From Hydrurus foetidus (taxonomy: Eukaryota): 40,342 bases of DNA. Under the pieces are notes generated by a model. The model searched no databases. It saw only the letters and a list, made by a program, of their open reading frames with translations, and had not been told where the DNA came from. Each line of letters begins with the position of its first letter. Positions within the stretch are counted from its first letter, which is position 1. Positions 4,444 through 35,621 of the stretch are shown one piece after another. The translations under genes were made by a program, and so were the position numbers. The stretch lies in the NCBI GenBank assembly GCA_900617105.1, contig UYFQ01000442.1, forward strand, positions 1 through 40,342. Direction: 5' to 3'.

Positions 4444-4449
4444 TTTGCC

Positions 4450-12445: not shown

Positions 12446-12457
12446 AATAGCGCTATT
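12446..12457 (-). promoter_or_regulatory. 12-bp palindrome at the PBS position of B
   Basis: AATAGCGCTATT overlapping the terminal base of the LTR. Confidence 0.85.
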
Positions 12458-12662
12458 GTAGTCCTGATGGAAAGAAGACGGGTAGACGAGTAGGTGATGC
12501 TTAGGTTTACAGCTATGCTAGAAGCTAGGTAACTTCTACGAGTAGGCTAGAGCTAGCTAGCAGCTGTGCTAGAGATGTATGTGTACAGTAGGCGGAAGGA
12601 TCGGGTGGATCGTGACAAGGTCCGGTACGGCCCGTAGGCCCGGTATACCCGGTACGACCACA
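12457..12662 (-). repeat. 5' LTR of element B
   Basis: TGTGG...CTACA on the minus strand; highly similar to 25307-25513. Confidence 0.93.
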
Positions 12663-12901
12663 ATACCTATAATTTCTTTTACAGTGGATTCATAAGTACT
12701 GTACATATATAATCGAAAACATTCGAGCCATTTCAACACAGATTCTGGATCTGCCGCTTGTCCTCGCGGCAAATCCAGGTAAGCACCTACTTCGGGCTTC
12801 CTACCTTTAGATATGAGTTTATGAGGCTCTCCTTGCCCTCTACCATATCGACCCCTGCCCCCGCCACGGGACTGGAATCTTCCATCGCCTTGTCCTCTCA
12901 T
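12663..12901 (-). pseudogene. gag: Copia gag, 5' part
   Basis: MRGQGDGRFQSRGGGRG...KEIIG; continuous with the segment ending at 8382 across the TSD. Confidence 0.8.
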
Positions 12902-13342
12902 CCTTGCAACGCTTTTGCAACTTCTAGCTAATCTATCTAAGGATGACTGTCGTTTATGTTGGAAATCTGGGCGATTTACACGGAATTTCTTCCGAGTTCC
13001 CAAACGATCCCTGCACTTCCGACTGCTAGCAACGCTCGCTCAAAAGAGAAGAAGACGTTCTATTCGGTAAGTTGGATTAAACGACAGTGACATGCTGTCG
13101 ATTACATCTAGGTAGCATAACATGAGTGCGAGGGTTGCAGTCAATGTTATCGCTGAATGTACGTACACCCGTGCATGAAAACTATCATATATCACACAGG
13201 GTACAAGATCCTAGTCTAATCCGGATATCACAACAGGTTACATTAGCGTGTTTGCGTTTTCCGTTTTTTTAAAGTTATTTCCGTCCAAAATTCCTTCCGA
13301 ATATTTCAGCGAATTTTTGACAGAATTGGGGGATAAACCTAA

Positions 13343-13880
13343 GGCTGCAATTTATGGCAACGGAAAACGGCCATACGTTCAAGAAAGCCGTGAAGTTTCT
13401 TCCGTAAAAAGTTGATTCATGGGGGATTCCTGAAAAATTCCTACGCTTTTCAACTCCGCTTCTTCAAATCTTCCACGTGTAAAACGAGTTTATTCCGTGG
13501 ACTATTTGAGGCACCCGAGAAAGGAATTGAGGCGACGTTGCACTTTTTATTTCACATCGGCAGCAGAACACATCATCGCAATGGCTGAAGAAGCGGCAAC
13601 TCGAATGGGTAGAGTATCAAGAGGAATCGGAGAGTCGTACACGCTACTCCTTCTCCTTCAAATAATTGCCTAGCACACTCGTTAATGATGATCGCTAGAG
13701 GTTTAGTAACGGTCACAGAAGGTAGTTTTCAATGGAGAATTAATTTTTGAACTTTTGAAATTTTGAATTATTACGTACACTCTACACCTAAAACCATGAA
13801 GCGAGTCAAAATGTACATACGGGTAAACTTCACGGCTTTCTTGAACGTATGGCCGTTTTCCGTTGCCATGAATTGCAGCC
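13343..13880. mobile_element. Tourist/PIF-Harbinger-type MITE with 56-bp TIRs and TAA TSD
   Basis: 13343-13398 is the reverse complement of 13825-13880 (1 mismatch); TAA at 13340-13342 and 13881-13883. Confidence 0.93.
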
Positions 13881-14328
13881 TAAGGGTCGTATTCCATCAC
13901 AAAAAAAAAATACGAAAAATAGGAGATTTCGAAATACGAGATCCCGAAAATGAAATACGAAGCCCTTCGAATTTCGTCGAAACTCGTTTTGCAATTTTTT
14001 TTGGGTGGTGAAAAAAATCTCGTATTTCGAAATCTCGTATTTTTCGGAGAAATACGAAAATACGAAGCTGGAAAGTTCGTTTTACATATTATCTGGATTT
14101 GAAAGTATCTTCCATCGTGATACGAAATAAAACGAAGAAAAACGTACGAATACGACCTCTCATAAACCGTATAAAATTATTGTTAATAATTGTGAGCAGC
14201 AATTATTGTTTTGACAGACTTGCTGCAGCACGTAGCTTCACATCCATCTCGAACAACTCTCATCATCACTCAAAGTTTTTCCTTGTCACAGAAAGATTTC
14301 TTGTCGATGAGGGCGACTTTATCTTTAT

Positions 14329-17090
14329 AAAGTCCGGTGCATTGAATGTGGAGCTGATTCCACCGACACAATAGTCGATGGCAGATGGTGGGGCGATGGG
14401 ATTATGCTCGGAGATTGAACGACGTGGACATCTCCCACAAGCTAACTGCGAAAATTCGCTGATGGCGACTTCCTTTCTACAGCAGAAAGTCCGGTGCATT
14501 GAATGTGGAGCTGATTCCACCGACACAATAGTCGATGGCAGATGGTGGGGCGATGGGATTATGCTCGGAGATTGAACGACGTGGACATCTCCCACAAGCT
14601 AACTGCGAAAATTCGCTGATGGCGACTTCCTTTTTACAGCAGAAAGTCCGGTGCATTGAATGTGGAGCTGATTCAGTCGGCTCAATAGTCGGTGGCTGCT
14701 TACGAGGCTATGGGATTATGTTGCTTCGATTCTGAGAGTGACCGACGTGAACATCTCCCACAAGCTAACTGCGAAAATTCGCTGATGGCGACTTCCTTTC
14801 TACAGCAGAAAGTCCGGTGCATTGAATGTGGTGCTGATTCCATCGGCTCAATAGTCGATGGCTGCTTACGAGGCTATGGGATTATGTTGCTTCGGAGAGT
14901 GACCGACGTGAACATCTCCTACAAGCTAACGGCGACAATTCGCTGATGGCGACTTCCTTTCTACAGCAGAAAGTCCGGTGCATTGAATGTGGAGCTGATT
15001 CCACCGGCTCAATAGTCGATGGCTGCTTACGAGGCTATGGGATTATGTTGCTTCGGAGATTGACCGACGTGAACATCTCCTACAAGCTAACTGCGAAAAT
15101 TCGCTGATGGCGACTTCCTTTCTACAGCAGAAAGTCCGGTGCATTGAATGTGGTGCTGATTCAGTCGGCTCAATAGTCGATGGCTGCTTACGAGGCTATG
15201 GGATTATGCTCGGAGATTGAACGACGTGAACATCTCCTACAAGCTAACTGCGAAAATTCGCTGATGGCGACTTCCTTTCTACAGCAGGAAGTCCGGTGCA
15301 TTGAATGTGGTGCTGATTCCATCGGCTCAATAGTCGATGGCTGCTTACGAGGCTATGGGATTATGTTTGGAGTGACCGACGTGAACATCTCCTACAAGCT
15401 AACGGCGACAATTCGCTGATGGCGACTTCCTTTCTACAGCAGAAAGTCCGGTGCATTGAATGTGGTGCTGATTCAGTCGGCTCAATAGTCGATGGCTGCT
15501 TACGAGGCTATGGGATTATGTTGCTTCGATTCTGAGTGACCGACGTGAACATCTCCTACAAGCTAACGGCGAAAATTCGCTGATGGCGACTTCCTTTCTA
15601 CAGCAGGAAGTCCGGTGCATTGAATGTGGTGCTGATTCACCGGCTCAATAGTCGATGGCTGCTTACGAGGCTATGGGATTATGCTCGGAGATTGAACGAC
15701 GTGGACATCTCCTACAAGCTAACGGCGAAATTCGCTGATGGCGACTTCCTTTCTACAGCAGGAAGTCCGGTGCATTGAATGTGGTGCTGATTCAGTCGGC
15801 TCAATAGTCGATGGCTGCTTACGAGGCTATGGGATTATGTTGCTTCGATTCTGAGAGTGAACGACGTGGACATCTCCCACAAGCTAACGGCGAAAATTCG
15901 CTGATGGCGACTTCCTTTTTACAGCAGAAAGTCCGGTGCATTGAATGTGGAGCTGATTCAGTCGGCTCAATAGTCGGTGGCTGCTTACGAGGCTATGGGA
16001 TTATGTTGCTTCGATTCTGAGAGTGACCGACGTGAACATCTCCCACAAGCTAACTGCGAAAATTCGCTGATGGCGACTTCCTTTCTACAGCAGAAAGTCC
16101 GGTGCATTGAATGTGGAGCTGATTCCACCGACACAATAGTCGATGGCAGATGGTGGGGCGATGGGATTATGCTCGGAGATTGAACGACGTGGACATCTCC
16201 CACAAGCTAACTGCGAAAATTCGCTGATGGCGACTTCCTTTCTACAGCAGAAAGTCCGGTGCATTGAATGTGGAGCTGATTCAGTCGGCTCAATAGTCGG
16301 TGGCTGCTTACGAGGCTATGGGATTATGTTGCTTCGATTCTGAGAGTGACCGACGTGAACATCTCCCACAAGCTAACTGCGAAAATTCGCTGATGGCGAC
16401 TTCCTTTCTACAGCAGAAAGTCCGGTGCATTGAATGTGGAGCTGATTCAATCGGCTCAATAGTCGGTGGCTGCTTACGAGGCTATGGGATTATGTTGCTT
16501 CGATTCTGAGAGTGACCGACGTGAACATCTCCCACAAGCTAACTGCGAAAATTCGCTGATGGCGACTTCCTTTCTACAGCAGAAAGTCCGGTGCATTGAA
16601 TGTGGAGCTGATTCAATCGGCTCAATAGTCGGTGGCTGCTTACGAGGCTATGGGATTATGTTGCTTCGATTCTGAGAGTGACCGACGTGAACATCTCCCA
16701 CAAGCTAACTGCGAAAATTCGCTGATGGCGACTTCCTTTCTACAGCAGAAAGTCCGGTGCATTGAATGTGGAGCTGATTCAGTCGGCTCAATAGTCGGTG
16801 GCTGCTTACGAGGCTATGGGATTATGTTGCTTCGATTCTGAGAGTGACCGACGTGAACATCTCCTACAAGCTAACTGCGAAAATTCGCTGATGGCGACTT
16901 CCTTTCTACAGCAGAAAGTCCGGTGCATTGAATGTGGAGCTGATTCAATCGGCTCAATAGTCGGTGGCTGCTTACGAGGCTATGGGATTATGTTGCTTCG
17001 ATTCTGAGAGTGACCGACGTGAACATCTCCCACAAGCTAACTGCGAAAATTCGCTGATGGCGACTTCCTTTCTACAGCAGAAAGTCCGGT
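14329..17090. repeat. Tandem array, 17 units of ~155-166 bp
   Basis: AAGTCCGGTGCATTGAATGTGG recurs at 14329, 14486, 14643, 14809 ... 16915, with a partial start at 17081. Units are 157-bp and 166-bp variants plus mosaics. Confidence 0.97.
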
Positions 17091-17631
17091 ATACATAGAA
17101 GACCGAACTTATATCAGTGATATTAAATCTTGCGCTGGTGGCGCCTGCAGAGAGACATGCGTTGAAAAGTGCTCAAGTGATACAGTTGACTCGGAGTTTG
17201 TACAGATCATACCGGAAGAAGCGGTTAAATCGGCCTAACACTCTGGGAAGTAAAACACTATTTATTTGGTGCGCAATCATATTAACCTGTGAGAGTTGTA
17301 GATGTCCGGTAACTCACTGTTAGCGTAGAAAATACATCTACTGTGTTCATAGGCCTCAAGTTTGTCAATTTCATTTTGAATCACGGTGATATTAGTGCAC
17401 ACATTATAACTAATCATAACTTATACAGAGCAATTGATTGAATGTCTTCCTATTCTTTGGAGGATTAATCTATTAAATGCAAATTTTAATTTCTCCTTCA
17501 ATTTTAGCCTCAGCAATGCTGTATTTGACACAATTCGTCCTATCTAATGTAGTATCTTCTCGCATACTATCAGTGGGGACAATAATGTCTTTCATAGGCA
17601 AATTTGCAATTCTAATATTGATTCCTTCCTG

Positions 17632-19029
17632 TTGTTTTTGTTAAATTTGCTGTTCCTTAATTCAGTTAGCAAGTGGGAGAAAAAAGCTCTCGGCAAAATC
17701 CCTCAAGGACATCCCGTTTCGAAGATGCATCCAGAAAACATCGATACACCTCTTGAAGTCAACCACAATGTAATCAAACACACCGGCATGATAACGAAGA
17801 GCTATCTGTTGTCTCATCCTGAGATTCTCTCTGAGATCTTGAAGGATGAGATTGAAAATGATGGTACTGCTAAAGGGCGACACGATACTTTTTCGAATCG
17901 AAGGGCAGCCCCTAGACAAAGGAACCGCGGATATGCGTTGGAGGAAATGGAGCATCTTACTGACAAGGAATTTCAAAGGATGTTCCGATTAAACCGAATA
18001 GCGTTCTATTGGTTGCTTTCGAAAATCTATCACGATATTTCATCCATCGCTTCGCTCCGTCAAAAAGTACAAATTGAGCGAAATATCTCGGCGGCAACTA
18101 AACTAGCCGTCACGATGCGTTGGCTAGCAGGAGGTTCTTATCTGGATATTTGTTTTGCTTTTAGAATAGCTGTGGGGACTTTCTACAAATCTAGCGGTAT
18201 ACTTTGGGGAACTATGGAAGCAATCAACAAGGTGTTAAGTATCGGCTTTCCGCTGCATGACATGGCAAAATTAGAGGAAATTTTCAAAGGTTTCTCCGAA
18301 TTTAGTCATGGGCGCATGAAAGGGTGTGTGATGGCTATGGACGGGTGGGTCTTGAAAAGGCGCTGTCCAAGTCCTCATGAAGTTCAAAATCAGATTTGTT
18401 ACAGAAACCGGAAAGGAGTATGGGGAATGGTGATCTTTGCCGGCTGTGATCACAAGTGTTACTTTACGATGTTTTCATCAGAATGTCCAGGGTCAACAAA
18501 CAATTGCATAGCATGGGAACTTACAGATCTTTTCCAATCAGTTGTTGTGAGAAATCATCTACCTGGGCAATACTTCTTCATCTGTAACGAAGCAGTATCT
18601 GCCAATGAGTGTGTACTTTCACCGTACGGAGGAAGGAACATCGGACCGTGGAGAGATTCGTTCAACTACCATCTTTCGGCGATGCGACAAACAATAGAAA
18701 GATCATTCGGTTTACTGACAAAAAAATTCGGGATATTTGCAGGGCCATTACAATGTGATTATGGAAGGTGGAATTTCATTGCAATAGTCTGTGCAAAGCT
18801 TCACAATCTTTGTATCGACTTTGGTGTCGGGGATACATCTGGAGTGCCAGAAGATTACGCTGAAGGAGATTCTGCCGAAGTTTTCATGAACTCATACCAG
18901 GAGGATAATGTCAGTACATGGCCAACTAATAGTGACAATAGCAGCATAAAGAGTAATCAAATTTGTGAAATCTTAAAACAACAGGGCTACTGCAGGCCAA
19001 CTCATGCAAGATGCAACAGCAAAGCATAA
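17632..19029 (+). CDS. PIF/Harbinger (HARBI1-like, DDE_Tnp_4) transposase, probably inactive; true start likely further downstream
   Basis: FQRMFRL, KLAVTMRWLAGGSY, MAMDG, YRNRKG, PGSTN, FNYHLSAMRQTIERSFGLL, LHNLC. Confidence 0.92.
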   Translation: MFLLNLLFLNSVSKWEKKALGKIPQGHPVSKMHPENIDTPLEVNHNVIKHTGMITKSYLLSHPEILSEILKDEIENDGTAKGRHDTFSNRRAAPRQRNRGYALEEMEHLTDKEFQRMFRLNRIAFYWLLSKIYHDISSIASLRQKVQIERNISAATKLAVTMRWLAGGSYLDICFAFRIAVGTFYKSSGILWGTMEAINKVLSIGFPLHDMAKLEEIFKGFSEFSHGRMKGCVMAMDGWVLKRRCPSPHEVQNQICYRNRKGVWGMVIFAGCDHKCYFTMFSSECPGSTNNCIAWELTDLFQSVVVRNHLPGQYFFICNEAVSANECVLSPYGGRNIGPWRDSFNYHLSAMRQTIERSFGLLTKKFGIFAGPLQCDYGRWNFIAIVCAKLHNLCIDFGVGDTSGVPEDYAEGDSAEVFMNSYQEDNVSTWPTNSDNSSIKSNQICEILKQQGYCRPTHARCNSKA

Positions 19030-19035
19030 ATATGA

Positions 19036-20760
19036 TCAAAATGGTGGGGAGAAGCTCTCGGCTCTGTTCTGAAGATTTTCTAGACGACTCCTCTTGATTG
19101 CTTGCATGTCCTTCAACATATTTAATGCCATAGCTTTCATCTCATCTGTAGTTAATGGTATTTCAAGGATTAACTTAGCAAATTCTATATTGTCTTTTTC
19201 AGATTCCTGGAGAGCAGATAATGAATTGTTGTCATACTTTTTTCCACCTTCATCTCTGATCTCCAACACTATCATTTTCTCGTGTGACTTTTGTTCACTG
19301 TGATTCGGTGATGATCTTTTCTTCTTAATTATCGTAGAGCTGTTACCAGTATTCGGATTTTCTCCTTCCACTCCTGTGTCGCACTGCGACTCTTCACAAC
19401 ACACTTTGCCCAGTAAACCTACCATTTCATCACAATGATCGAAGACAATGAACGCGTACAAGACAATGGTATCTCCACCGAAAAACTTCATAAATTCGGC
19501 TACTGGATCTTCAGCATCATGATCACCGCTCTGATATCGGTACCTCTCGTACACTTTAGTCCATGCACCTTTGAACTCCCTCAGCACTTTTTTAATCCAT
19601 TCTCCTCCTCTTTCAGGACGACTACCATTGCAGGGGTCTATACTCCCGCAGAAAGGTAAGGCAGCACCCTCACCATTGCACGCATTCTAAAATCTCGCTC
19701 CTGAACAAAGTTACAGATGATCTAGATTAACAACGTTCTATAAAATATCATAGGAACACTTATTTCTCACCTTCATAGTCATTGAATGATTCTGCAAGAT
19801 CGTTCCAATGTTCTCCATGACATGCTTTATCATCTAACTCAGCACGGTTCATCACTTGGTGTGCTGAAGTGAATTTGGAGCTGAATGCAGGCGAGTTGAG
19901 CATGTGTATGAGCCTAGCTTTGTCGTCTTTATTGGTGTTTTGTGTCGAAAATGGAGCAACTTCAGTACTTTGAACTCCGGCTGCTTTCGGCTTACTAGTC
20001 TCAATACCTTGAATCATTGAGAATTGCTCTTCAGAAGTCAGCTTACCCCATGCAGCGTGGCAAGATGCACGCTGGGACTCTCTCATCTTATCCCATTTGT
20101 TCCTCGACCAATACGCCTTAACGTCAGCCTTGAATATGACTGCTAGCTTTGTGATCACTTCCTTGGCGTTGGTTGTAAAGATTTGATGATAGTCCGCCGC
20201 ATCTATATCACTGGAAAGAACGTTCTCGTTGCCATCTTCTTCGGTCATAGTAACAATGCTGTTTGTCTCCTCTTCACGAATTGGGGTGTCGCACAGAGAC
20301 TCGTTCGCAGTGAAACCGATTTCCTCTTCCTCATTTTCACCGTCAGACCCTGATCTCTCAAACCCGTCTGCATCCTTCGCTGCATCTTCTGCTTCCTGTT
20401 CTTGGATATCAAGTTTCTCGTGGAAGATTGCTTCCGTCATCTATGATTTCACGGAGTTTTTAGGGTTGTAAATTAAACTGACTATTTGAGAGAAGTTGCA
20501 GCCATGCTCATTTTGAAGTCGAGAAGATGAGATGCACCGAGCAGCCACATTCCCTCTTCCAGCCAGACTCATCAGTCGTTGATAGCCCGCAGTAGAAGTG
20601 CATTTTCTTCTTACAGTGAATGCATTTCGAGGGTATATTGGGATCGACATTGAATCGACACGTTGGACAATTGCTACTCCGCTGCTTCTGTTTTTTCACT
20701 TGGGCAGAAACGTTTCCTCAAATTGCAACGAAGGGTTTTATGCACTGCGGAGGAATTCCT
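19036..20760 (-). pseudogene. Harbinger accessory gene (PHD-like finger, acidic linker, possible Myb/trihelix-like region); spliced/degenerate
   Basis: Fragments 20508-20699, 19760-20440 and 19036-19587; GAAG|GTGAG donor at 19770; tail-to-tail with the transposase. Confidence 0.6.
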
Positions 20761-21498: not shown

Positions 21499-22533
21499 CT
21501 ATTTATCAGTGTTTTTATCATCTTTTTTAGCTCTATGTACTGTAAATTTTGTATGCATTTTGGATTCTCTGAATGCATTTTGTACATTAGTTGAATTCAT
21601 TATGATTTGTTTGACTTTATTCACCGCTTCATCACAATTAAACAAAATCAATACATCGGTGGTCAACGATTGCATGTATATACTCTGAATAATTTTTATA
21701 AAAATGTAATTTCCAACTCTAGGGAAATACAGACCCTCAGAGTGCTGCCGAAAAAGGAGGTAACGCGCAGGCATGTCGTCCGATAATGCAGAAGATCCTA
21801 AATCATAGCAAGATTACGTGTAGTATTCGTGAAATACGTCTCGGAAATCGTTGCACAACCGATTATACTTTAATACGTTGAATATTCTGTAACCGCAAAG
21901 ATAGCCTGTTATATCATAGATCTTTTCTTTCATTGCTTCTGAGTACTCATATGTTGTATCGTTTTCTCTCTCTTCTATGAAATTAGACCAGTGCTGCTTC
22001 TTCTCTGTCATAACCCATTTCCAGAAATTTTCTGATAAATAAAGCTCCAATGATCCATACAATATGTTGCTTTCTTCAGAAGTGCTGTCGCTCTCATAAT
22101 CGACAGCCATGTCGAAAGTATCTTTGATACAGGCCAGACAGCTGAACTTCTTCCTTGACTCGTCCCGTAGTTGAATTCTTTCAGATTCGAACGCTTGAAT
22201 CATCACTTTGCCAGCTCGCTGACGTTTCTCAATTGAGCGACTCGTGCCGCCAATCACGACTTTTAGGTACTGTTCAAAATAGGCAGCACAAAGGCCGTAT
22301 AGCAAGACGATGATGTCATTACTCGACTCTGGGACACTCAGGCAGCTTCTGAAAAATCCCCAAAAAATGCTTCTTCGCTGCATGTAAAAAGGGATGCATT
22401 CGAAGAGGTTTTGAACGGTACTCCTAAAGATACCATCTTCCTCTGTGAAAACCTCCATGGTCAACTTCCTCATGATGAAAAGCTGTTGATAGTCTACAAC
22501 TGAGGCAAGGCTTTGACTGAAGTTTGGTTGCAA
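21499..22533 (-). pseudogene. Unknown ORF split by one stop; possibly related to a transposase C-terminus
   Basis: The 239-aa and 91-aa ORFs share a frame. IYDITGYL...GLYFP resembles the YIAGY...GL..P pattern of P-element/THAP9-type C-termini. Confidence 0.35.
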
Positions 22534-25295
22534 GGAATTTTCTCAGGCGGGAGGGAAATGAAGAGAACCTTTCAAATAATTAGATGCAGTATAAGAATCT
22601 CGGGTATTTTGTTTTTCAAATTTTTGAGTGAGAGACATCGGAGAAAATTTTATGGGACCCAGAGGCCTCAAAGTGCCCCCTCTCCATTAATACCCCCTTG
22701 TCTATACCTATATGTTTTCTCAGATTCCAGAAATCCAACTTATTCGGTCCGTAGTTTCACGACGTGGATACCATTCCATCAACATCATAACACACCAGGT
22801 AGCCAAGTACAGCTTCCCCTGTGATGCATTCCACGCAGTACTTTTGATGTCGACTTCTCCCTTGCACTGTGGTCGTTAGAGGGCACAAGTTATTTCTGGA
22901 TTCCGACGTAATTTCATCCTGAAATCTCTTATCTCCCGGAAAGCAGCAATCTCGGACGACTTTTCGAAAGATCGAATATTCTTCAGCGCGGGACTCTTCT
23001 GTTAGATTTCTGAGAACTGAAATTGTTCATACAGGTCACTACGAACCGATTCATGAAATCTAATACGAGTTTGAAATCTTTCTCTACTCGCAATGACATG
23101 TTTTCTGATGTCGCTATTAAAAATGCACTATAGACTTAAAATGGACGCCGATGCTGTTGATTAGTCCTAGTGTGGCATCCATTGCAAATACCCTCTGGTG
23201 GTAAATGGTCGCCCGATATGCTTGCATCGGAGAGTGGCTGCACTTCGAGATGATCATCAGTCAGGTTAAAGACATCATCATCGAAAGTGGCAGCCACGCA
23301 GTCATAGGCAAGCTTCTTACCTTGGTTTTGTCCCGGAGGAGGGTTGTGTCCCTGCGGAGGGTTGTATTTACCCCTACCGCCGTACCCACAGCCCTGGTTT
23401 TGGTTTGCATTGGGGTTTTGATGGCCCCTTTGTTTTCCTCTACCACCCCCCTAGTTACCATGGTTACCATAACCAGATTGGTTTTGGGAGTTTCCCCCTT
23501 GACCCTGGTTGGAACGATCTGAACCATCCGAGGTGTTGGAGTAATTCCCAGAACCATGGCTGTTCTTGGCGCGCTTGTTGTCGTTACACATCAAGTATGG
23601 TTTAGAACCTTTGGGTTAATACTGAACTCTTTCCTCGTATCCTGGAAGGACGAGGTTCAGTTGCCATTCAGTATACCCCACCGCAGCCTAGGCCACCCCC
23701 ACTGTAGACCCCTCCCACTCAACTTGATGATTCGTGATGGAGTCGGAGTAATACAAGATGGGGCAGTCTGCCAACGTGTGCGACGTAGCTCCGCACGACC
23801 GGCACGCACGAAACATCGGTACGAGCGGTACTTCCATGGAAGTACGGACAGAGAGTCCGTGCTGCGTCGGAACGTACGAGCTAGAGGTACGCACTGTCGC
23901 AGTGACTAACCTCGACGAAGCGGAGGGTGTAGGTGAGGGTGCTTTAGCACTCGCTCTACTCGTTTCCTTTTTACCAACATCTGGTGGAGCTGCTGATGCA
24001 GGAAACGAGTAACCCGTCTCCAGGTTACCATAGCTTTTGATGAGGTTCATTATTGCCCTAGCCTCGGCAAGAACCTGACCAATGCGTAGCATAGTCGAAT
24101 ACCACGTATGAGGTGGGGTGTTATCAGCAGCTTTTGCTTTCAGGTAGTCTTGTTGAATTTGACTATCCTCAGCTAGGCGCTTCTCCAAAATCAAAATGAG
24201 CTCAGCATGCTGAGTCTCTGATCATGGTCCCTTAGACCTCTCATAAGTGCTCACAAGTTCGTTGTAACATACGAATGTGGCATTCTCATGATCGTGGTTA
24301 GCGATCTGATAATGGAAGGGAACTTGGCTAAAGCTCATTGCCAGAGTACATTCTCCCAAATCATTTGGCAAGAAGTACTTTATCATCAGTTTGGCTACCT
24401 GAAGTACTGACAATTTAGTCTGCCAATCATGGTGTAAACGTCTATCGATGATGTTAATTAAATTGTCGTGATCCTGAAATTCAGCAATTCGATTGCCTGC
24501 TTTTGCATGCAATCAGTTAGCTTCATCGATGGGTACCTCTGAGCCTGTTCGTAGAACTCAGTCGCATCAGCTTCATCAATGAAGTTATGCTTGAGAACGA
24601 ACACCTCACCCTGGAGTTGCATTGTCGAGGGGAAAGCTGGGAACAGCGAGTTCGACGATGACATAGTCGACTCGTTGAGCGCGGCTAAAACTGCCAGACG
24701 TGCAATCTCCTCCTCTTCAGGAGATGGATCAGGGTTTCGGTTAGGTGGTGATGACATGTCTAATCACTTATCGATATAAATCTCACTTAAACTCAATGAA
24801 GAGCGATAACCTCTGCCCAGAAAAATTTTCCAGAGCTTCGCCTCGTTCACGAACGAGTGCTTTAACGTTAGTAACAACGGATGAGAGAATTTCAACCAAC
24901 TCTTAAACTGAAAAGTTCTATGGCGTAAAAGCCGAATTTAGAGTGATAGAAAATTTATGGTACCTTTAAGGTAGAAGACGTTGCTCAGCGTCGACCAAAA
25001 GAAGTCTCTGGACCAATCTTATGTCTCTGGTGATGAATCTGCGATTCAATCGACCAGTGGAGCAAGCCTTTACTGACTTCTGGGAAGGATAAATCAACTT
25101 CTACCAAGAATGTCGAGTTTGGAAGAGCCCAAGCAAGGAGATTCCAAGAAAGCAGGTACTCTGAGAAACTAATTTTCTCTGAGCCAATGTCTACAAGAGA
25201 AGTCGGCTTAAAGTCGACGAACGAAAGCTTAGAAGTCGTATCAACAGGGTTGGACAAGTAGATGGACTGAGAGGTAGAAGAGAAGAGGTTGGACG

Positions 25296-25307
25296 AATAG
25301 CGCTATT
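25296..25307 (-). promoter_or_regulatory. 12-bp palindrome at the PBS position of B2
   Basis: AATAGCGCTATT. Confidence 0.85.
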
Positions 25308-25513
25308 GTAGTCCTGATAGAAGGTAGGTCGATCGAATGGAGGTGCTAGTTAGTTACAAGTCTAAGCTAGAAGCTAGGATAAACTTCTACGAGTAGGCTA
25401 GAGCTAGCTAGCAGCTGTGCTAGAGATGTATGTGTACAGTAGGCGGTAGGATCGGGTGGATCGTGACAAGGTCTGGTACGGCCCGTAGGCCCGGTATAGC
25501 CGATCCGACCACA
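25307..25513 (-). repeat. 5' LTR of B2
   Basis: TG...CA ends; homologous to 12457-12662. Confidence 0.92.
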
Positions 25514-26250: not shown

Positions 26251-26493
26251 TGTGACCCGCACAGCTGTACGGCTGTACGGGTACCGGCGTACGTTCGGTT
26301 CGGTACCGGCGTACGTTCGGATGGTTCGGATCGAGGATGATCCGAGCCATCCGATTCATGACTTGCCTATCTCTGTGTTTATCTGTAAGCTAACCACATC
26401 TTTGAGCCAACAGCCCAAGCACCATAGCTGTCCTTCCTCTTGCACTCGCGTCCTGTTCCATCAGTCCACCGCTCAGCCCGTAATTAGGCCACA
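26251..26493 (+). repeat. 5' LTR of C
   Basis: TGTGACC...GGCCACA; homologous to 35394-35610; internal duplication of GGTACCGGCGTACGTTCGG. Confidence 0.9.
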
Positions 26494-26504
26494 ATACTAG
26501 TATT
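26493..26504 (+). promoter_or_regulatory. 12-bp palindrome at the PBS position of C
   Basis: AATACTAGTATT. Confidence 0.85.
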
Positions 26505-27019: not shown

Positions 27020-29056
27020 TTAAAGCTCAAGACAAATTGCCCAAATAAAGAAGAAAGCGGCTGCTAACGCAGGCGCCTCTGCTTCTTCGGCTCCAAGCGC
27101 TTCGCACAGTGCTCCTCTCACTGAGAAGGACAAGCACAAAGCAGAGCACGCCCTTGTAAAGCAGAACATCGGGAAATCGATACTGGCTCTGGCCAAAGAA
27201 GCAATCCATGTTTCGGCTACCCCAACTCGTATCGAAGACTCGGAGAAGTTTTTCAAAGGCGTCTTGACAGCAGCGAAAGAGATGCAAGCAGCTCATAAAA
27301 TAGAGCAAGTAGCAATAGCAGCTGCACAAGCTGCTGCCGACGCTTTAGAACCCTCAAACGACGAGCTACTCGGGACGCTGAGGACGCCGAGGGCGAGACA
27401 GATTCTCCCCTAGATACCCGCGGGTACTTACAAAAAGGGGGAGACAACTCGATACTTCATCCCCGATTGCGACAGATCTGTGTAGAGGACGACCTAGTCG
27501 TACCATCTGTCGACGCCGAAGTCAAAACAAATGAGGCAGCCGACAACGGCAAGGCCGAGGCCGAAGCCGAGTCAGAGCCGGAGGCTGACGCCGACGGTGA
27601 AGATAATGCCAACAACAACGGCGACGACAACCCCCCGACGAGTCGGCGACAGCGAGAATAACGTTGACGACGCTAACGACAGGGAAGGTGATGGTGGCAA
27701 CCGACAGCTCCTCCGACGAGTCCGACGCAAGTAGTAGCGACGGGGACGACGGAGAGGGTGACAGGGAGGATGACAGGGACGACGACAGCGACGACGATGA
27801 AGCGAAAGCTGAAGTCGAAGTCGAAGTCGACGAGGAAGTTGAACCCGAAAAGTCTAAGCCAAAAGAAAAGAAAGCACTGAAGATCAAGCCCCTCGCCAAG
27901 AAAAAGTCCCCAAAGGCGGGTCCTAAACCCGCCCCAAAGGACAAAAAGGTGAAAACTAAAGCCGATACTAAATCAGGCAAAACACATCACGCGCGCAAAA
28001 GGCGGGAGACTCGGAAGAGGATTCCCCCCCACAACGTAAAGCGGGTTTGCAAACCTCTATCATCAACATGAAGGAGGCGTACTACCTCACTCGAGAAAAA
28101 CTCCTCGACGACACTGATAAAGCAGCAAGAGCTTTCTACGAACAAGCATACCGCCCAGGTATGCTAACCAGTTGGGAAATGCTAATCGAAATGGATGCCA
28201 TCCAAACGATCCGCGACCAGTTGCTTCGTTGCAAAAGCGAAACAGGTTATAACACCAAGACTTGTCTCGCCTGGCCAACGGTCGACGGCAAAACGTTAAC
28301 GTTAAAGAAAATTGCAAATGATCTTAAAAAGATCTTCTACAAAAACAAACGTACGTCTTCCCATTTCGACTTCGAAATGAAGTTAAAAAACTGCAAATTC
28401 CGCATCAGCTGGAAAGATCTTTCTGTTGAAGACAGAGCTCTCTCTGAGTTCCGTGACATCCTTGTTGGATTCTGGACGTCATACGATGCTATCGATGCCG
28501 ACATGCAAAATGACATCTATAAGGCCTTCTACAAGAAGCTGCCAAAGAGCAATAAGTTTACAGACAATTTCATGGCAAAGACAAAAGTAAGACGAAAAAG
28601 ACCGGGAAGGATACCATCTTCAAAATGCTCACGCGTCTTGTCGTCATGCTGGGCGAAGCACGCCAGATGATCAAAGACGCGGAGGACATGGGAGGTCTCG
28701 ACTTCGTCTTCGAGTCGAAGCTCACGCCAACTGACCAAGACGACGCTGAGGTCGCGCCTCACCGTGACAACCACTCGGCTAACGCCTACAAGGCAATCTC
28801 AAAACGTCAGGTGGACCCTGAGTCGTCCGGCCTCAGCCGGGCGACCAACTTTTGTCACACATGTGGCAAAAAGGGACACAACCGTTACGAATGCCAAAAC
28901 CACATGAACCCTCACTGCAACCGTAACCAATCCACTTGGTCGCAGTCGGAGGAGGCAAAGGACTTCAAACGGATTGGTCACGATCACTTCGTACCAAATG
29001 TGTACATCAACGGGGAACTTACCCGGGAAACCAACAATCCCGGTACGGCTACCTAT
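27020..29056 (+). pseudogene. gag: Element C gag (multiple frameshifts)
   Basis: Acidic and K/P-rich N-terminus, NMKEAYY core, CHTCGKKGHNRYEC knuckle. Confidence 0.85.
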
Positions 29057-29326
29057 TGTAGCCTTATTGCATCTCTATGGGAATACAATGTGTCTAGGTT
29101 AACTAGGTACAATAGGTACAATACGCCCAGATTCCAGTTTTAGGTCTTAGTTCCACATGATGTGAGTGCTCTTAGTGTACACATCACCTGAACTATTCAA
29201 CTGTAAACTATAACCACAATCTTATCTCGCAACCAACTTCTTTCTCTTTCGTCCTTCGTCCTCTGTCCTCGCGCTTTCGTCCAACAAAACCTACGTCCTT
29301 CGTCCTAGGCCCCGACCAACGCCACA
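29057..29326 (+). repeat. 5' LTR of D
   Basis: TGTAG...CCACA; direct repeat of 34484-34753. Confidence 0.97.
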
Positions 29327-29337
29327 ATATCGATATT
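29326..29337 (+). promoter_or_regulatory. 12-bp palindrome at the PBS position of D
   Basis: AATATCGATATT; absent after the 3' LTR. Confidence 0.88.
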
Positions 29338-29426
29338 CGGCTATCGACCGAAGTTTTTCTGGAGAAATTCCTTTCTCGTTTGCAAGTTTTCGCGCCTACC
29401 ACTCCTACACACCAAACGCCAACATC

Positions 29427-32400
29427 ATGGCATTACGTCGCCAGGAGAAAAAAGTCAAGGCAACTAACGCACGCCGACGTGCTTTGCCTCGAGCTGTAGC
29501 TATTGCGGCGCGCCAACGTTTTTTGGAGCATACGCAACGACGTGGAGATATCGAGTCTCCTGGGCCACCAGCGGCTCAGGACCACGCCGGCGACCTGTCT
29601 GCACCGATTCCTCAGCGGAATTCGGAGCCTGCGGTCATGTCTGCCATTGATGTTCCTGTCATTTCTGCGTTGTCTGCTTTACCAGCTTCGGCTGTGATAC
29701 CAGCTTCGGCTGCGATACCAGATTCGTCTGCGACACCAGCTTCGGCTGAGAATCCTATTCCAAGGACGATGGCACCACCCCAGCAATATGTGCAGACGGG
29801 TGAGAGAGCTCCTAAGTTGAGCGCCGTGCCCTCTCGTCAGGAAGTAGTTCGGGTAATGGAAGTTCTCCTTTCAAATGGAACTCCATTTAAACCTATTGAT
29901 GTCGTCCATGCATCAAACCACCAATCGTTTACAACGCTTCTCAAGCGTAAATTCGCGACAGATCCTGATCGTCGTGATGCTTGTAACAATTGGAAGCATT
30001 GGACGAATCAATTGTTCTGTAGAGAACTAAACATCACAGTTCCTACATCAGCTGTCAATCGAACTGACAAGCTGAGTTTCATTGAAACTGTCTCTCAGGT
30101 CGCACTTCAATTCGACCTGAAGGATAAATCAGTGGAAGACAAGACAGATCAGCTTTTAGCTGATATTGTCGATGGATTCCCTGATGCAACACCCGCTCTC
30201 CAACTTCAGGCAACCAAAATTCTCATCGATAAGTTGCCAGTCGAACCTATCAATTGGAGAGCAGTGTTACAGCGTAGTCTTAACAATACAACGCCAAGAC
30301 TCATTACAATCGAAGACTTTCGATTCGTATGGCTTGCGCAGCTTGCTAAGCTACGAGAATCAATTGATGCCTTACGGTTCATTGATGTCTCTCCTTTATA
30401 TGGTGATCATTCTCGCCAAATTAAGGGCCCTCCTCGTTCCTCTCTCGATAAAATCAAAAAACGTCCACGAGAGGACGAGCAATCTGTGCAATCAGACAAA
30501 TCAGACAGACCTCTTTGCACAGGTTGTGGGAAACTCGGTCATCTAATCGCCACGTGTTTCTACACTTCGTCTCCCTACTTTAACAGTACAGACGCACCCT
30601 ACATCAACTCTGAGGGTCATAAGCAGTTGATGAAAGTTGATCCCAAAGCCAAGTTTATCCCAACTTCGCCTAGGCCTGCAACCTCTTCATCTTCTTCTTC
30701 TTCTTCGTCGTCATCTTCGACATCGAAATCTGCTAATTCAACAGCAGACGCGACACAAAACGCGAAGAAACACAAAGGTGAGCAACTTTGCAACCTCAAT
30801 TCATCATCTACTCTCTCCGATGACCCACAACTTATTCCATTCTTCATTGCTCCTCTTTCACAGGAGCTTATGCTGGAAAGAAGTGATAGAGTTTACACTC
30901 TTTTGGACACCGGATCGTTCGCCGGCAACTTTATTCATCGCCGTACCATACTAAAACATAATTTTACACAATTTGTTTCTAACTCACCAGAGAAATTATG
31001 TAAAGTTTGTAGTGGTTTAGATAATCATTGTTATGATATTTCTGACACTATAGATTTAACTCTTTCTTATTTTTGCCATGATTTAAATAATTATTATACT
31101 TTTCCAATCACGGCCTTTGTTTTAAACGATATGAAATTTGATCTAATAGTGGGACGAAAAACAATTCGTCAATTGAATTTGTTTTCACGATTCCCAGATC
31201 AAATATCTGCCAATGCTTCGTCAAGCACTATTCCGTTACCAGAAATATTATCTTCTGAGTATGTGGATATAACGTGTGGCTGTCAGCTTAAGGAGAAGTT
31301 GCAACCCTCCGACGGCTCCCCAAAAGTGGACCCTTTACCCCAAAAGGTGAAACCGGCAGTCACCCAAACACACGTTATTCTAGCATCGCTAATTCAAGAG
31401 TCAGATAGACTTTTTGGAGCAGTGCCTCCTGATGAAGATGAAATCGACGACTCGATCAAGGACTCGTTTTCACCTTGGATAGATGAATTCCCTGATACAG
31501 ACCCACTCTCGCTAATACATATAGCAGGTGATGAAATCAGAAAAATAAAATTCGATTACTAGTACACGAATTTCAGGATGTATTCAGCAGTGAACTTTCC
31601 CACACTCCTGCTGATATTCCACCATTTGACTTTAATGTCAATGATAGCCAATGGAAAGTCTCTAAAAATAGACAACCTCCATGGTCTAAATCAACAGTTG
31701 ATCAAGCTGATATTCTTAGTCAAATTACACAGCTTGAAAAACAAGGGATTGTTGAAAAATCAAACGCGGCTTATTATAGCCAAGTTTTACTGGTTCCAAA
31801 GTCTGATGGAACTAAGCGCATGTGTATAGATTTTCGGAATCTTAATAGTTGTACCGAAGAAAAATCACACCCTATTCCGCACATTGGTGAGATGTTGCGA
31901 CGAATAGGTGCACATAAAGCAAAAGTATTTGCTGTACTTGACCTTACTCAAGGATATCATCAAGCACCACTTACACTTGCTGCACGCGCTTACACTGCAT
32001 TCATACTTTTCTGCGGAGTATATCAATTTACTCGTTTACCCTTTGGGCCTAAACAAGCTCCCTCCTATTTCCAACAGATCATGTCAACTGTTGTGTTAGC
32101 AGGGTTGATATACTCTATATGCGAAATGTATATCGATGATTGCAATGTTTTCGGTAAAGACATTGACGAACTCATTTCTAGACTTCGTCTTGTTTTTGAA
32201 CGCTTTAGAAAACACAAAATATTCCTTAAACCGAATAAGTGTTATCTAGGCTATGCCGAAATAGACTATGTTGGCAAAGTTCTATCTGCTGATGGACTTA
32301 GAATGTCACAAGAAAAAATACGGAATGTCTTAGATTTTCCTAAACCAGTACTATCTAAACAACTCAAAAGTTTTTTAGGATTGGTTAATTATTTTCATGA

Positions 32401-34299
32401 CTTTGTTAGAAATGCTTCTACTGTTGTATATCCATTACATCAGTTGCTTCTTAACTACAATAAGTATAAGAAAATAACTTGGACAATAGAAGCTCTCAGA
32501 GCATTCAATTTGATCAAATCTGAGATTTCAAAATGCACGACTATGCACTTTTTAAGTGACACCGATCCGATATACTTGCACACTGATGCATCGGACTATG
32601 GTGTAGGTGCTTATCTTTTCCAGTTAGTTGACGGTCAAGAAACGCCCATAGCATTTGTCAGTAAATCACTTAACAAAGCTCAGCTTCGTTGGGCTGTTAT
32701 ACAGAAAGAAGCTTATGCTATCTTTTATTCGTGCACGTATTTAAAATCGCTATTACGTGATCGTACGTTTACTTTACGAACGGATCATCGTAACTTGTTA
32801 TACATTAAGGATAGTTCAAATCCAATGATTGTTCGGTGGTTTATGGCCTTATCCGAATATTCATTTAAAATTGAATATATACCTGGACCTAACAATGATA
32901 TAGCCGATTCGATGTCTAGACTCTGTCGCAATAACATGGTTGATTTCCCTCAGGAATATACTCCTGAAGCAATCATTACTGCTAATACTATTGAAAAATT
33001 CAAACTAACACGTGAGCAGTACAATACAATCAGTAAAGTACACAATTCACAAGTTGGTCATTTCGGTCTTGAGCGCACTTTAAAGCGTCTCATGGACAAA
33101 AAGATAGTCTGGCAATATATGCGTCAGCATGTCAGGTGGTTCATAGATCACTGTTCGTGTTGTCAGAAGATGAGTATGATCAAAATACCAATACATGCTC
33201 ATGGCTTCTCGACTTCTACTTACACACCTATGGAATGCCTTAACATAGACTTCATAGGACCGTTTCCAGACGGGGGTACGTACTCGTAATTATCGATACG
33301 TTCACAAGATGGGTTGAACTGTTTCATACAGAAGATGCTACGGCACTTTCAACAGCTAAATGCCTCTTGCAACACTTCGGTCGTTTCGGCGCACCTCTCC
33401 AACTCCGTTCTGATAATGGGCCACACTTCATTTCCGAAGTTATCAAAGAGTTTCTAACTCTTATCGGCACTCAACATTGTCTTACTTTAGCATATTCTAA
33501 AGAAGAAAATGCTATTGTTGAGCGCATGAATAAAGAAGTTAATAGACATCTTCGTGCATTAACATTCGATAATGTCACACTAGAAGATTATAAAACGTCA
33601 CTTCCATTTGTGCAAAGAATTTTAAATTCTAATCACAGTGATCGTTTAAAAATATCATCTTCTCAACTTCTTTTCGGAAATGTACTTAAACTCGATAGAG
33701 GTATCTTTTTACCTCCTGCTGAGCGAAATGTTACTGATGACAAACCTTTGTCTAAGCGTATGAGCAATCTACTCAAAACACAAGATAGTCTTCTTAAAGC
33801 GTCAGCTAAAGAACTTCTTCGCACAGATTTGCTTCATCAATCTCAGTCTCAAATCTCTCAGCATGTAGAGTATCCAAAAGACTCTTATGTCTTAGTGCAC
33901 TATCGCGATGGATCTCCTCCTTCACGTCTTCACACGCATTGGAGAGGTCCATTAAAAGTCGTTAGTGGCGAAAATTCGCGTTACACACTTTATGATCTAG
34001 TCACTCAGAAAACTTCAGAATTTCATGTTTCTGCCATGAAACCTTTTCTATTTGACCCATCAATCACAAATCCGTTGGATGTTGCACGACGTGATCACAT
34101 GGAATACTTTGTTGAAGATATTCTTGATCATCGTGGCAAACATCAACGTACCCACATAGAGTTTTTAGTCAAATGGTTAAATTACCCTTCTGACAAAAAC
34201 ACTTGGGAACCTTACTCAAGTCTTCGTGATGTTGATAAACTTCATGATTATTTACGTCAAAATAATATGACAAAATTAATCAATAAACAACACCGTTGA
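29427..34299 (+). CDS. Element D Gag-Pol (gag, PR, RT, RH, INT, chromodomain) with two 1-bp frameshifts (~31535, ~33275)
   Basis: CTGCGKLGHLIATC, LLDTGS, YIDD, TDASDYG, HHCC, RSDNGPHF, VERMNKEV, VKWLNY..NTWEP. Confidence 0.95.
30778..30863 (+). other. Predicted 86-nt gag/PR intron in D
   Basis: AAAG|GTGAG ... CTCTTTCACAG|GA; spliced product reads KHKGAYAGKK-stop (30884-30886). Confidence 0.7.
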
Positions 34300-34374: not shown

Positions 34375-34399
34375 TTAGTCAGTAAGAGTCTGACATAAT
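34375..34399 (+). promoter_or_regulatory. Conserved 3' UTR stem-loop, element D
   Basis: TTAGTCAGTAAGAGTCTGACATAAT. Confidence 0.6.
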
Positions 34400-34463
34400 C
34401 GTTTTGATAAATCTTTCAACACTTGTACTTCTTTTGTTAATATACATATACTGTACATTCTTC

Positions 34464-34483
34464 AAAAAAGGAAGAAGGGGTAG
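34464..34483 (+). promoter_or_regulatory. Polypurine tract of D
   Basis: AAAAAAGGAAGAAGGGGTAG before the 3' LTR. Confidence 0.9.
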
Positions 34484-34753
34484 TGTAGCCTTATTCCATC
34501 TCTATGAGGATACATTGTGTCTAGGTTAACTAGGTACAATAGGTACAATACGCCCAGATTCCAGTTTTAGGTCTTAGTTCCACATGATGTGAGTGCTCTT
34601 AGTGTACACATCACCTGAACTATTCAACTGTAAACTATAACCACAATCTTATCTCGCAACCAACTTCTTTCTCTTTCGTCCTTCGTCCTCTGTCCTCGCG
34701 CTTTCGTCCAACAAAACCTACGTCCTTCGTCCTAGACCCCGACCAACGCCACA
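34484..34753 (+). repeat. 3' LTR of D
   Basis: Direct repeat of 29057-29326. Confidence 0.97.
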
Positions 34754-34953
34754 CTATGTATACCCGACTGACGACGTTGAGAACGATTTCTCCCCTCCAG
34801 GGAGAACCCAAGACGACCGTCCGACAAAGAAACAAAAGCTGGCCTACAACAACAACAACAAGTACAACAAGTACAAGAGCAACCGGACTCAACCCGATCG
34901 GGACAACGATCGTTCCAACACGAACAAGTTGAGCTCCAACTACGAGGGAAAAA

Positions 34954-35090
34954 GTAAGTCACAACTTGCTAACCCAATTACGGACTTAATCGAGTACGCT
35001 CGAGAACTACCATCAATGAAACAACTTCTATCAGCTGTATTAACTGAAAACATAGATGATTTCTTACAAGTTCACATATCTCTACCACAG
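34954..35090 (+). other. Predicted 137-nt gag/PR intron in C
   Basis: AAAA|GTAAGT ... TCTCTACCACAG|AT; the spliced frame stops at 35213-35215. Confidence 0.75.
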
Positions 35091-35393
35091 ATCCGATCCC
35101 CAACTTCAAACCAAGTCGCGACCAACCTGACGATCGCAGGGACAACTCACACAAGGAGGCGGACAGACAGAAGTCCACTTCTTCCTCCTCCTCCAACCAA
35201 TACGTGCCAAACTAGAGGCATGGCAGCCTTGGCCCAAATCGACACTGGATGTCAAGTCGGGGACGTCATAAACGGCAGAGTCCTTCGGGGCTCCGCGGCG
35301 AAACCCACTTGCGTAATTCCGACTCACCCACGTGGATGTGTTCTGGTTTCAATAATCCATGTGTAGAATCTACAAATGTGCTAGATATTGTTG

Positions 35394-35610
35394 TGTGACC
35401 TGAACACCCGTACGGGCTGTACGGGTACAGGCGTACGTCCGGTTCAGATCGAGGACGATCCGATCCACACGATTCATTGCCATGATATCTGTTGTGTTTA
35501 CCTGTAAGCTAACCACATAGCTATCATAGCACTAGCCCCACAGCATCCCCCCTTCGTCCACGCGCCCTCAGACCTCCGCTCCCGTTGCCCTGAGACCTAG
35601 CAAGGCCACA
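35394..35610 (+). repeat. 5' LTR of E
   Basis: TGTGACC...GGCCACA; homologous to the C LTR. Confidence 0.9.
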
Positions 35611-35621
35611 ATACCGGTATT
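35610..35621 (+). promoter_or_regulatory. 12-bp palindrome at the PBS position of E
   Basis: AATACCGGTATT. Confidence 0.85.

What the first reader, a model, noticed from the sequence alone, without database searches (positions are those of the whole stretch)
12446..35621. tRNA primer-binding site replaced by a family-specific 12-bp palindrome AATA-NNNN-TATT in all five Gypsy 5' ends
Seen: each 5' LTR ends ...ACA and its last A begins a perfect palindrome. These are AATAGCGCTATT (B 12446-12457; B2 25296-25307), AATACTAGTATT (C 26493-26504), AATATCGATATT (D 29326-29337) and AATACCGGTATT (E 35610-35621). Four different cores all stay palindromic, i.e. compensatory change, even between the close relatives C and E. 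The motif is absent after 3' LTRs. Known: Ty3/Gypsy elements normally have TGG... (complement of the tRNA CCA end) 0-3 nt after the LTR. Tf1-type elements self-prime through complementarity to the transcript 5' end, and I see no such complement inside these LTRs. HIV-1 DIS is a palindromic dimerisation signal, but it sits alongside a tRNA PBS. Inference: tRNA-independent priming, e.g. two co-packaged genomes anneal via the palindrome and a cleaved strand primes minus-strand synthesis, or a fold-back primer. The variable core could act as a self/non-self code limiting heterodimers between families. I cannot tell whether this has been described.
Basis: partly seen in the sequence, partly recalled or inferred. 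Interest (0 to 1): 0.92.

Follow-up and report, generated by a model that had tools for sequence, protein, structure and literature searches.

The report
Palindrome replaces retrotransposon tRNA primer site
Five gypsy-type jumping genes here, and dozens of their relatives, carry a perfect self-pairing stretch of 10 to 16 letters exactly where a host tRNA primer normally binds, which likely lets two copies of the element's own RNA pair and start DNA copying without a tRNA.

Summary
All five palindromes are at the stated places, start on the last A of a 5' LTR of chromodomain Ty3/gypsy elements, and are absent after the 3' LTRs tested. The trait is clade-wide. Of 22 relatives' LTRs anchored without using the motif, 17 pass a strict test (background about 1%) and the other 5 carry variants. 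55 non-redundant junctions give 29 different palindromes of 10-16 nt, with compensatory changes down to the innermost pair. Symmetry stops exactly at the LTR's last A. There is no tRNA-type TGG, no Tf1-type complement in the LTR, no second hairpin arm, and no stable fold-back. Best reading (about 0.55, untested): two element RNAs anneal through the palindrome, and one is cut, probably by RNase H, to prime the other. A dimer signal with priming elsewhere is the main rival. The 'self/non-self code' is not supported as exclusive. Closest print: the palindrome of fungal GalEa Copia elements (PMC5445492), which also has a hairpin partner. This scan found the same trait before on other DNA.

The parts
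12446..12457 (-). Palindrome AATAGCGCTATT of element B; first A = last base of 5' LTR
12457..12662 (-). 5' LTR of B (TGTGG...CTACA); end inferred, no 3' LTR in window
7433..11923 (-). B gag, protease region and RT, broken and truncated; the RT frame runs on into a Copia gag
25296..25307 (-). Palindrome AATAGCGCTATT of B2 (relative of B, truncated near 23234)
25307..25513 (-). 5' LTR of B2
26251..26493 (+). 5' LTR of C (TGTGAC...CCACA); C is interrupted by D and then by E
26493..26504 (+). Palindrome AATACTAGTATT of C
29053..29056 (+). Left target-site duplication CTAT of D
29057..29326 (+). 5' LTR of D (270 bp)
29326..29337 (+). Palindrome AATATCGATATT of D
29214..34299 (+). D gag-protease, RT-RNase H, integrase-chromodomain, in three overlapping frames (broken by frameshifts in this copy)
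34461..34483 (+). Polypurine tract region of D
34484..34753 (+). 3' LTR of D; followed by TSD CTAT (34754-34757), no palindrome
35394..35610 (+). 5' LTR of E (inserted in the protease region of C)
35610..35621 (+). Palindrome AATACCGGTATT of E
36159..40132 (+). E gag, protease region and start of RT, broken
1357..3871 (+). Element A (my label; relative of B): RT-RNase H, integrase, chromodomain; 5' end not in window
4249..4457 (+). 3' LTR of A (end inferred); no palindrome after it

Best explanation
The palindrome occupies the primer-binding site of a large clade of chromodomain Ty3/gypsy retrotransposons and likely serves as both primer site and primer source: two element RNAs are predicted to anneal through it, and one would be cut, probably by the element's RNase H, to prime minus-strand DNA on the other. 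Shown: position, loss of TGG, covariation, sharp register on the LTR's last A. Predicted by folding only: a 10-16 bp duplex between two strands, no hairpin. Inferred steps: (1) co-packaged RNAs pair antiparallel. (2) RNase H cuts the partner near the 3' end of the palindrome, by analogy with Tf1, leaving a 3'-OH next to the LTR end. (3) RT copies U5-R. (4) The new DNA is complementary to the primer's own R-U5 tail, so RNase H would trim the primer back to about the palindrome. (5) Plus-strand strong-stop DNA copies that short primer. The daughter then gets the site on one strand and its reverse complement on the other, which would keep the symmetry exact and let both halves change together.
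For: Motif-independent test: 17 of 22 PPT-anchored LTRs with at least 480 nt carry an ACA-anchored perfect palindrome of 10 nt or more, against 3 of 357 coding windows and 13 of 1100 shuffles. The other 5 have variants. ACA+AATA-N4-TATT cores are palindromic in 32 of 33; the exception lies inside an RT gene. 55 non-redundant junctions give 29 palindromes, all of even length, and 11 of the 16 possible cores. On 40 aligned 12-mers, 99.2% of cells pair, 58 change on both sides and none on one side; the innermost pair, which cannot form in a hairpin, pairs in 40 of 40 with four pair types. Symmetry ends at the LTR's last A: that pair holds in 53 of 55, the next three in 15, 17 and 16 of 55, and flanking pairs are at 29.4% against 28.6% shuffled. 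This register holds for lengths 10 to 16, as expected of a priming site. Homodimer -6.8 to -14.9 kcal/mol, hairpin MFE 0.0 in 55 of 55; cofolds of the five leaders pair the palindromes between strands. Sisters at 97% RT identity differ by a compensated double change (L057/L059 against L061). RNase H motifs TDASD, KE, TDH, DIADS are present in D. Tf1 precedent: RNase H cuts an RNA duplex to give an 11-nt primer (review PMC7175516); its PBS starts ATAAC and is copied onto the cDNA 3' end (PMC11042837). 39 of 55 sites here start ATA after the LTR, and 40 of 55 are LTR-A plus 11 nt.
Against: No RNA end, cleavage or RNA-DNA junction was observed; only contigs were available. All sequence evidence shows pairing and position, not priming. 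The 55-junction set was picked for perfect palindromes, so the absence of G-U pairs and the 53 of 55 outer pair are partly circular; only the 22-LTR and 33-core tests are free of this. In Ty1 and Ty3 the primer's sequence is not inherited (PMC5371799), so step 5 is not general. The ATA match to Tf1 is three letters, and kinship to Tf1 was not tested. The palindrome is no more exposed than its flanks in monomer folds (0.53 against 0.49 unpaired, n=54), so a chaperone would be needed. The weakest homodimers are only about -7 kcal/mol.
Confidence: 0.55

Rival explanations
1. The palindrome is a genome dimerisation or packaging signal (like the retroviral DIS or Ty1 PAL sequences), and priming uses another, unseen primer or site.
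For: Covariation, strand-to-strand duplex energies and weak heterodimers (mean -1.9 against -11.1 kcal/mol over 19 distinct 12-mers) fit equally well. Palindromes are implicated in Ty1 dimers (PMC4974528).
Against: No other primer site was found: TGG in the 8 nt after the LTR in 0 of 55; no LTR complement. A pure dimer signal has no reason to start on the LTR's last base for four different lengths. It is not displayed in a loop.
Confidence: 0.2
2. The primer is a short element-derived RNA that ends at the palindrome (processed small RNA, early-terminated or antisense transcript), not a co-packaged full genome cut by RNase H.
For: A palindrome reads the same on both strands, so any such fragment is complementary to the site; all covariation data fit.
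Against: No small-RNA or raw RNA data were available. It needs a host process that gives a precise 3' end in many hosts.
Confidence: 0.12
3. The symmetry acts at the DNA level: a dyad for a protein, or a self-complementary single-stranded cDNA tail used in strand transfer or end joining.
For: No G-U pair in 240 cells (partly circular). Tf1 cDNA carries a single-stranded PBS tail.
Against: 29 sequences and four lengths are unlike a protein-binding site. It leaves minus-strand priming unexplained.
Confidence: 0.08
4. Host tRNA halves or fragments prime at this site, or the palindrome folds back on itself as a hairpin primer.
For: Half-tRNA priming is known in some Copia lineages (PMC6317226). 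Host tRNAs could not be checked (no genome held; 0 tRNA genes in the window).
Against: It would need some 29 different self-complementary tRNA pieces, swapped between sister families. The forced hairpin costs +2.3 to +2.7 kcal/mol in the four window families, and the innermost pair covaries.
Confidence: 0.05

Closest known systems
[quoted passage not shown] 2017, PMC5445492; passages and section 10 read)
   Same: No tRNA PBS; a short sequence right after the 5' LTR is palindromic when the LTR's last A is included; proposed to replace the PBS; mechanism unknown; authors also note the DIS likeness.
   Different: Here Ty3/gypsy with chromodomain. No second complementary arm downstream (longest 6 nt in 90 nt, below shuffles). 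The sequence turns over freely (29 forms, 10-16 nt), whereas two 10-nt forms cover 85% of GalEa families.
Tf1/Tf2/Tj1 and the Tf1-sushi-Tcn1 self-priming chromoviruses (passages of PMC7175516, PMC4600332, PMC11042837, PMC5341516, PMC6317226, bioRxiv 2022.12.06.519325)
   Same: Chromovirus-type gypsy, no tRNA site, PBS directly after the LTR, commonly 11 nt beyond the LTR and starting ATA; RNase H motifs intact.
   Different: No complement of the site in the own LTR (51 junctions, not above shuffles), so priming in cis from the RNA 5' end is not possible. The Tf1 site is not palindromic (stated in PMC5445492).
Retroviral dimer initiation site and Ty1 PAL sequences (passages of PMC4974528, PMC5445492)
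   Same: Short palindrome, predicted strand-to-strand duplex, variants that would pair poorly with each other.
   Different: Those sit beside a tRNA PBS, the DIS in a hairpin loop. This one replaces the PBS, is registered on the LTR end and is not loop-exposed.
Dictyostelid Skipper and SM-Tcn1 chromoviruses with unexplained priming (passages of PMC5006619, PMC2864245); Cryptococcus Tcn2-5 'novel mechanisms of priming' (one sentence in review PMC7175516)
   Same: Chromoviruses without tRNA site and without LTR complement.
   Different: They carry a polypyrimidine or T-rich stretch, not a palindrome. The Tcn2-5 sites could not be seen (primary paper not read).

Membership tests
Chromodomain Ty3/gypsy retrotransposon | RT-RNase H-integrase order with C-terminal chromodomain | tested here: met
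   Pfam RVT_1, RT_RNaseH, rve, Chromo in A and D; best PDB hit Ty3 RT, E 6.6e-64
Chromodomain Ty3/gypsy retrotransposon | TG...CA LTRs, polypurine tract, target-site duplication | tested here: met
   D: 270-bp LTRs, PPT, 4-bp TSD; most plant chromoviruses have 5 bp
tRNA-primed LTR elements | TGG complement of the tRNA CCA end just after the 5' LTR | tested here: not met
   0 of 55 junctions in the first 8 nt; the distant element L123 does have it
tRNA-primed LTR elements | Match to a host tRNA half or fragment | not testable with these tools
   No host genome held; no tRNA gene in the window
Tf1/sushi/Tcn1 self-priming group | PBS complementary to the RNA 5' end inside the LTR | tested here: not met
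   Longest complement mean 4.2 against 4.4 shuffled, n=51; duplex energy mean z 0.08, 3 of 51 at p<0.05
Tf1/sushi/Tcn1 self-priming group | RT phylogeny within the Tf1/sushi/Tcn1 branch | not tested
   No reference sequences of these elements were in hand; the tree holds only this clade and L123
Tf1/sushi/Tcn1 self-priming group | RNase H cuts an RNA duplex to make the primer | not testable with these tools
   Needs bench work; catalytic motifs present in D
Fungal GalEa CHS | Palindrome that includes the last A of the 5' LTR, in place of the PBS | tested here: met
Fungal GalEa CHS | Second complementary sequence 12-41 bp downstream forming a hairpin | tested here: not met
   Longest complement at most 6 nt, mean 3.9 against 4.6 shuffled, n=51
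Fungal GalEa CHS | Ty1/copia element | tested here: not met
   Gypsy domain order
Retroviral-type dimer initiation site | Palindrome displayed in a hairpin loop, separate from a tRNA PBS | tested here: not met
   Not more unpaired than flanks; no tRNA PBS
Retroviral-type dimer initiation site | Drives RNA dimer formation | tested here: inconclusive
   Predicted by cofolding only
Skipper-type polypyrimidine site | Polypyrimidine stretch after the 5' LTR | tested here: not met
   Sites are palindromes, half purine by construction

The most novel reading that the evidence does not exclude
A third way to start LTR-element reverse transcription, beside tRNA priming and Tf1-type priming in cis: the genome dimer primes itself in trans. 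One short palindrome is at once dimer linkage, primer site and primer, and copying of the primer keeps it symmetric while its sequence drifts, so that young sister families stop pairing with each other. It would have arisen more than once (this gypsy clade, fungal GalEa Copia).
Probability: 0.45. Interest if true: 0.88.

Novelty: new variant of a known kind. Interest (0 to 1): 0.7.

Why it matters
How reverse transcription starts defines the main kinds of retroelements. A large clade, known here almost only from metagenomes, has dropped the tRNA primer and kept a perfectly symmetric site that covaries freely. That turns an unexplained note on fungal Copia elements into a sharp and cheap test: symmetry-breaking and symmetry-restoring swaps in a 12-mer. 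If priming in trans is right, dimerisation becomes a checkpoint for replication, the element escapes control through tRNAs and tRNA fragments, and a two-base change could isolate a new family from its parent. LTR-annotation tools that need a tRNA match would miss or mis-score this clade (inference).

Tried and rejected
Whole-genome survey: no genome is held for this window. Variation inside the palindrome among copies of one family was not obtained, so it is open whether single-sided mutants exist in young copies. RNA ends: all runs offered were contigs; no piled-up ends (table 6). One contig in RNA run X20 covers a D-like LTR-palindrome junction (loose ends at 29299 and 29341), but it may be DNA and is not used as evidence. 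TGG right after the palindrome in C, E and L002 as a displaced tRNA site: rejected, the first base after the palindrome is uniform (T16, C14, G13, A12 of 55). Partial pairing of the E and C sites with a GTAC-rich stretch near the LTR start: rejected, it does not covary with the core and the set is not above shuffles. A hairpin right after the palindrome: weak (12 of 55 with z<-2), not a rule. Exclusive family code: the same 12-mer occurs in 6 of 55 junctions on separate branches; hosts are unknown, so no proper test was possible. Host identity: ESM Atlas gave only generic RT clusters; protein searches gave almost only metagenome proteins without informative names. The careful tree did not finish; the quick tree is used, and L123 sits on a long branch. 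Viral contigs gave 1 locus. Earlier scan notes by sequence: none.

Full report
Observation. The five 12-mers are at 12446, 25296, 26493, 29326 and 35610. They are perfect palindromes and are the only AATA-N4-TATT matches in the window (shuffles give 0.90 on average, 1 of 100 reaches 5). The window holds 22 perfect 12-bp palindromes in all, so the weight lies in position and in the palindromic cores.

Anatomy. The window is a nest of Ty3/gypsy elements with RT, RNase H, integrase and chromodomain; the best solved relative is Ty3 RT. D is the only element with both LTRs: 29057-29326 and 34484-34753, 5 mismatches in 270, flanked by CTAT on both sides. An empty-site joint with 4 shared letters in 3 of 4 runs laid confirms these ends. 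So the palindrome of D begins on the last A of the 5' LTR, and the 3' LTR is followed by the target duplication. D and E are inserted in C. B and B2 lie on the minus strand and are truncated. For B, B2, C and E the LTR end is inferred from the shared ...ACA end. All copies here are broken. The host is not identified; the runs that hold the DNA are from freshwater biofilm, sediment and glacier habitats, so a freshwater microbial eukaryote is likely (inference).

Relatives. I fetched 132 loci by RT similarity alone: 79 from metagenomes (the best 80 of 459 confirmed), 1 viral, 52 from genome bins. Two tests do not depend on choosing palindromes. First, LTR starts were anchored on the polypurine tract after the chromodomain. 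Of 37 such LTRs, 15 had under 480 nt of sequence and were dropped. 17 of the other 22 carry an ACA-anchored perfect palindrome of at least 10 nt, against 3 of 357 coding windows and 13 of 1100 shuffles. The remaining 5 have variants: L013, L016 and L017 have a perfect 10-mer with a broken outer pair, L080 has an LTR ending in ATA, and L039 has a 10-mer closer than my 150-nt limit. Second, ACA+AATA-N4-TATT has a palindromic core in 32 of 33 matches, redundant copies included; the exception is inside an RT gene. LTR ends are independently fixed by paired LTRs in L011, L012 and L056 and by the true 3' LTR of L058 against L057.

I then picked by hand one junction in each of 62 of the 132 loci from a candidate list. 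The other 70 showed none. A scan of those 70 for near-palindromes found nothing outside one repeat in L058. Of 18 with some upstream sequence that I inspected, none showed a full 5' LTR and leader with another motif; most contigs simply start in gag or pol. The one clear exception is L123, about 30% identical in RT, with an ordinary TGG site. With the five window sites there are 67 junctions, 55 non-redundant: 40 of 12 nt and 5 each of 10, 14 and 16 nt; 29 different sequences and 11 of 16 possible cores. On 40 aligned 12-mers 99.2% of cells pair, 58 show a change on both sides, none on one side, and slid partners fall to 34-58%. This set was chosen for symmetry, so these figures overstate the case; they describe the variety and do not prove it. 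On the quick RT tree (66 rows; B2, C and L125 had no RT; the careful search did not finish) sister families often differ by compensated changes, down to 97% RT identity, while the same 12-mer recurs on distant branches.

What the shape says. The innermost pair covaries in 40 of 40, all lengths are even, the isolated hairpin never forms (MFE 0.0 in 55 of 55), and homodimers are predicted at -6.8 to -14.9 kcal/mol. The pairing is therefore between two strands. Symmetry ends at the LTR's last A: 53 of 55 for that pair (partly by selection), then 15, 17 and 16 of 55 for the next three, and 29.4% against 28.6% shuffled for four flanking pairs. That register, kept over four lengths, ties the site to the point where minus-strand DNA must start. 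Known options fail: no TGG in the 8 nt after the LTR (0 of 55), no complement in the own LTR (51 tested), no second arm downstream.

Mechanism. Most likely (0.55) two co-packaged RNAs anneal through the palindrome; RNase H cuts one near the palindrome's 3' end; RT extends it over U5-R of the other; the primer's own R-U5 tail, now complementary to the new DNA, is trimmed; and plus-strand DNA copies the short primer. The last step would put the site and its reverse complement on the two strands of the daughter, which explains exact symmetry with fast joint change. None of these steps is shown. They lean on Tf1, where RNase H cuts an RNA duplex to give an 11-nt primer (review), the site starts ATAAC and is copied onto the cDNA end; 39 of 55 sites here start ATA, a three-letter match only. 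Against: in Ty1 and Ty3 the primer sequence is not inherited, the palindrome is not exposed in monomer folds, and no RNA data were available. Rivals: dimer signal with another primer (0.2), short element-derived RNA primer (0.12), DNA-level role (0.08), tRNA fragments or fold-back (0.05). On the self/non-self idea, heterodimers are weak (window families -1.1 to -6.8; mean -1.9 against -11.1 over 19 12-mers), but cores are shared between distant families, so at most it separates sisters.

What is known. Fungal GalEa Copia elements have no PBS and a 9-bp sequence that is palindromic with the LTR's last A, plus a downstream arm that forms a hairpin; no mechanism is known (PMC5445492, passages and section 10; cited again in PMC6934838, passages). 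Plant chromovirus lineages are listed as tRNA-primed or self-primed, with no palindrome class (PMC6317226, passages and one supplementary table; its per-element table was too large to read, and may bear on this). Skipper and SM-Tcn1 lack both known site types but are pyrimidine-rich (passages). Other papers were seen as passages only: PMC4600332, PMC7175516, PMC4974528, PMC5371799, PMC11042837, bioRxiv 2022.12.06.519325 (67), PMC5341516. Nine searches found no description of a palindromic site in gypsy elements. The library lacks most subscription papers: four primary or review Tf1 papers were not held, the Tcn2-5 paper was not read, and Repbase and GyDB cannot be searched, so prior notice is not excluded. 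This scan has noted the same trait on at least seven other windows (unchecked notes, seen after I had formed my reading).

Verdict. A real, clade-wide feature; a new variant of tRNA-independent priming with one printed analogue in Copia. The mechanism is specific and testable but unproven. Interest 0.7.

Noticed in passing
window 14251-17180: Tandem array of about 18 units of 155-166 bp with mosaic variants.
   Followed up: no
window 17548-20440: DDE_Tnp_4 (PIF/Harbinger-type) transposase on + with convergent unannotated ORFs at 19036-19686 and 19760-20440 on -.
   Followed up: no
window 4748-9136 (-): The RT frame of gypsy B runs without a stop into a Copia gag with a zinc knuckle; the Copia pol is cut off in RT shortly before the 3' LTR of A. 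I did not look for Copia LTRs.
   Followed up: partly
window 29053-29056 and 34754-34757: D makes a 4-bp target duplication, where most plant chromoviruses make 5 bp.
   Followed up: partly
L013, L016, L017, L025, L033, L080, L097; L042, L043, L046: The inferred LTR end is TA, or TCA, instead of ACA, with the palindrome kept. These ends are not confirmed by paired LTRs.
   Followed up: partly
L081-L132: 52 contigs with this eukaryotic retrotransposon RT lie in bacterial and archaeal genome bins, probably mis-binned eukaryotic DNA.
   Followed up: no
L042:360-371 and 6679-6690: The palindrome follows both LTR copies in this contig, as expected for a tandem array of elements that share an LTR, or a collapsed assembly.
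   Followed up: no
5' parts of the LTRs of A, B, C, E and many loci: Clusters of GTAC/CGTACG short palindromes within about 60 bp of the LTR start, possibly promoter elements.
   Followed up: no
22 nt after the palindrome: A short hairpin often follows (12 of 55 with z<-2); not universal.
   Followed up: partly
window 21814-22542 (-): 242-aa ORF with no Pfam match.
   Followed up: no
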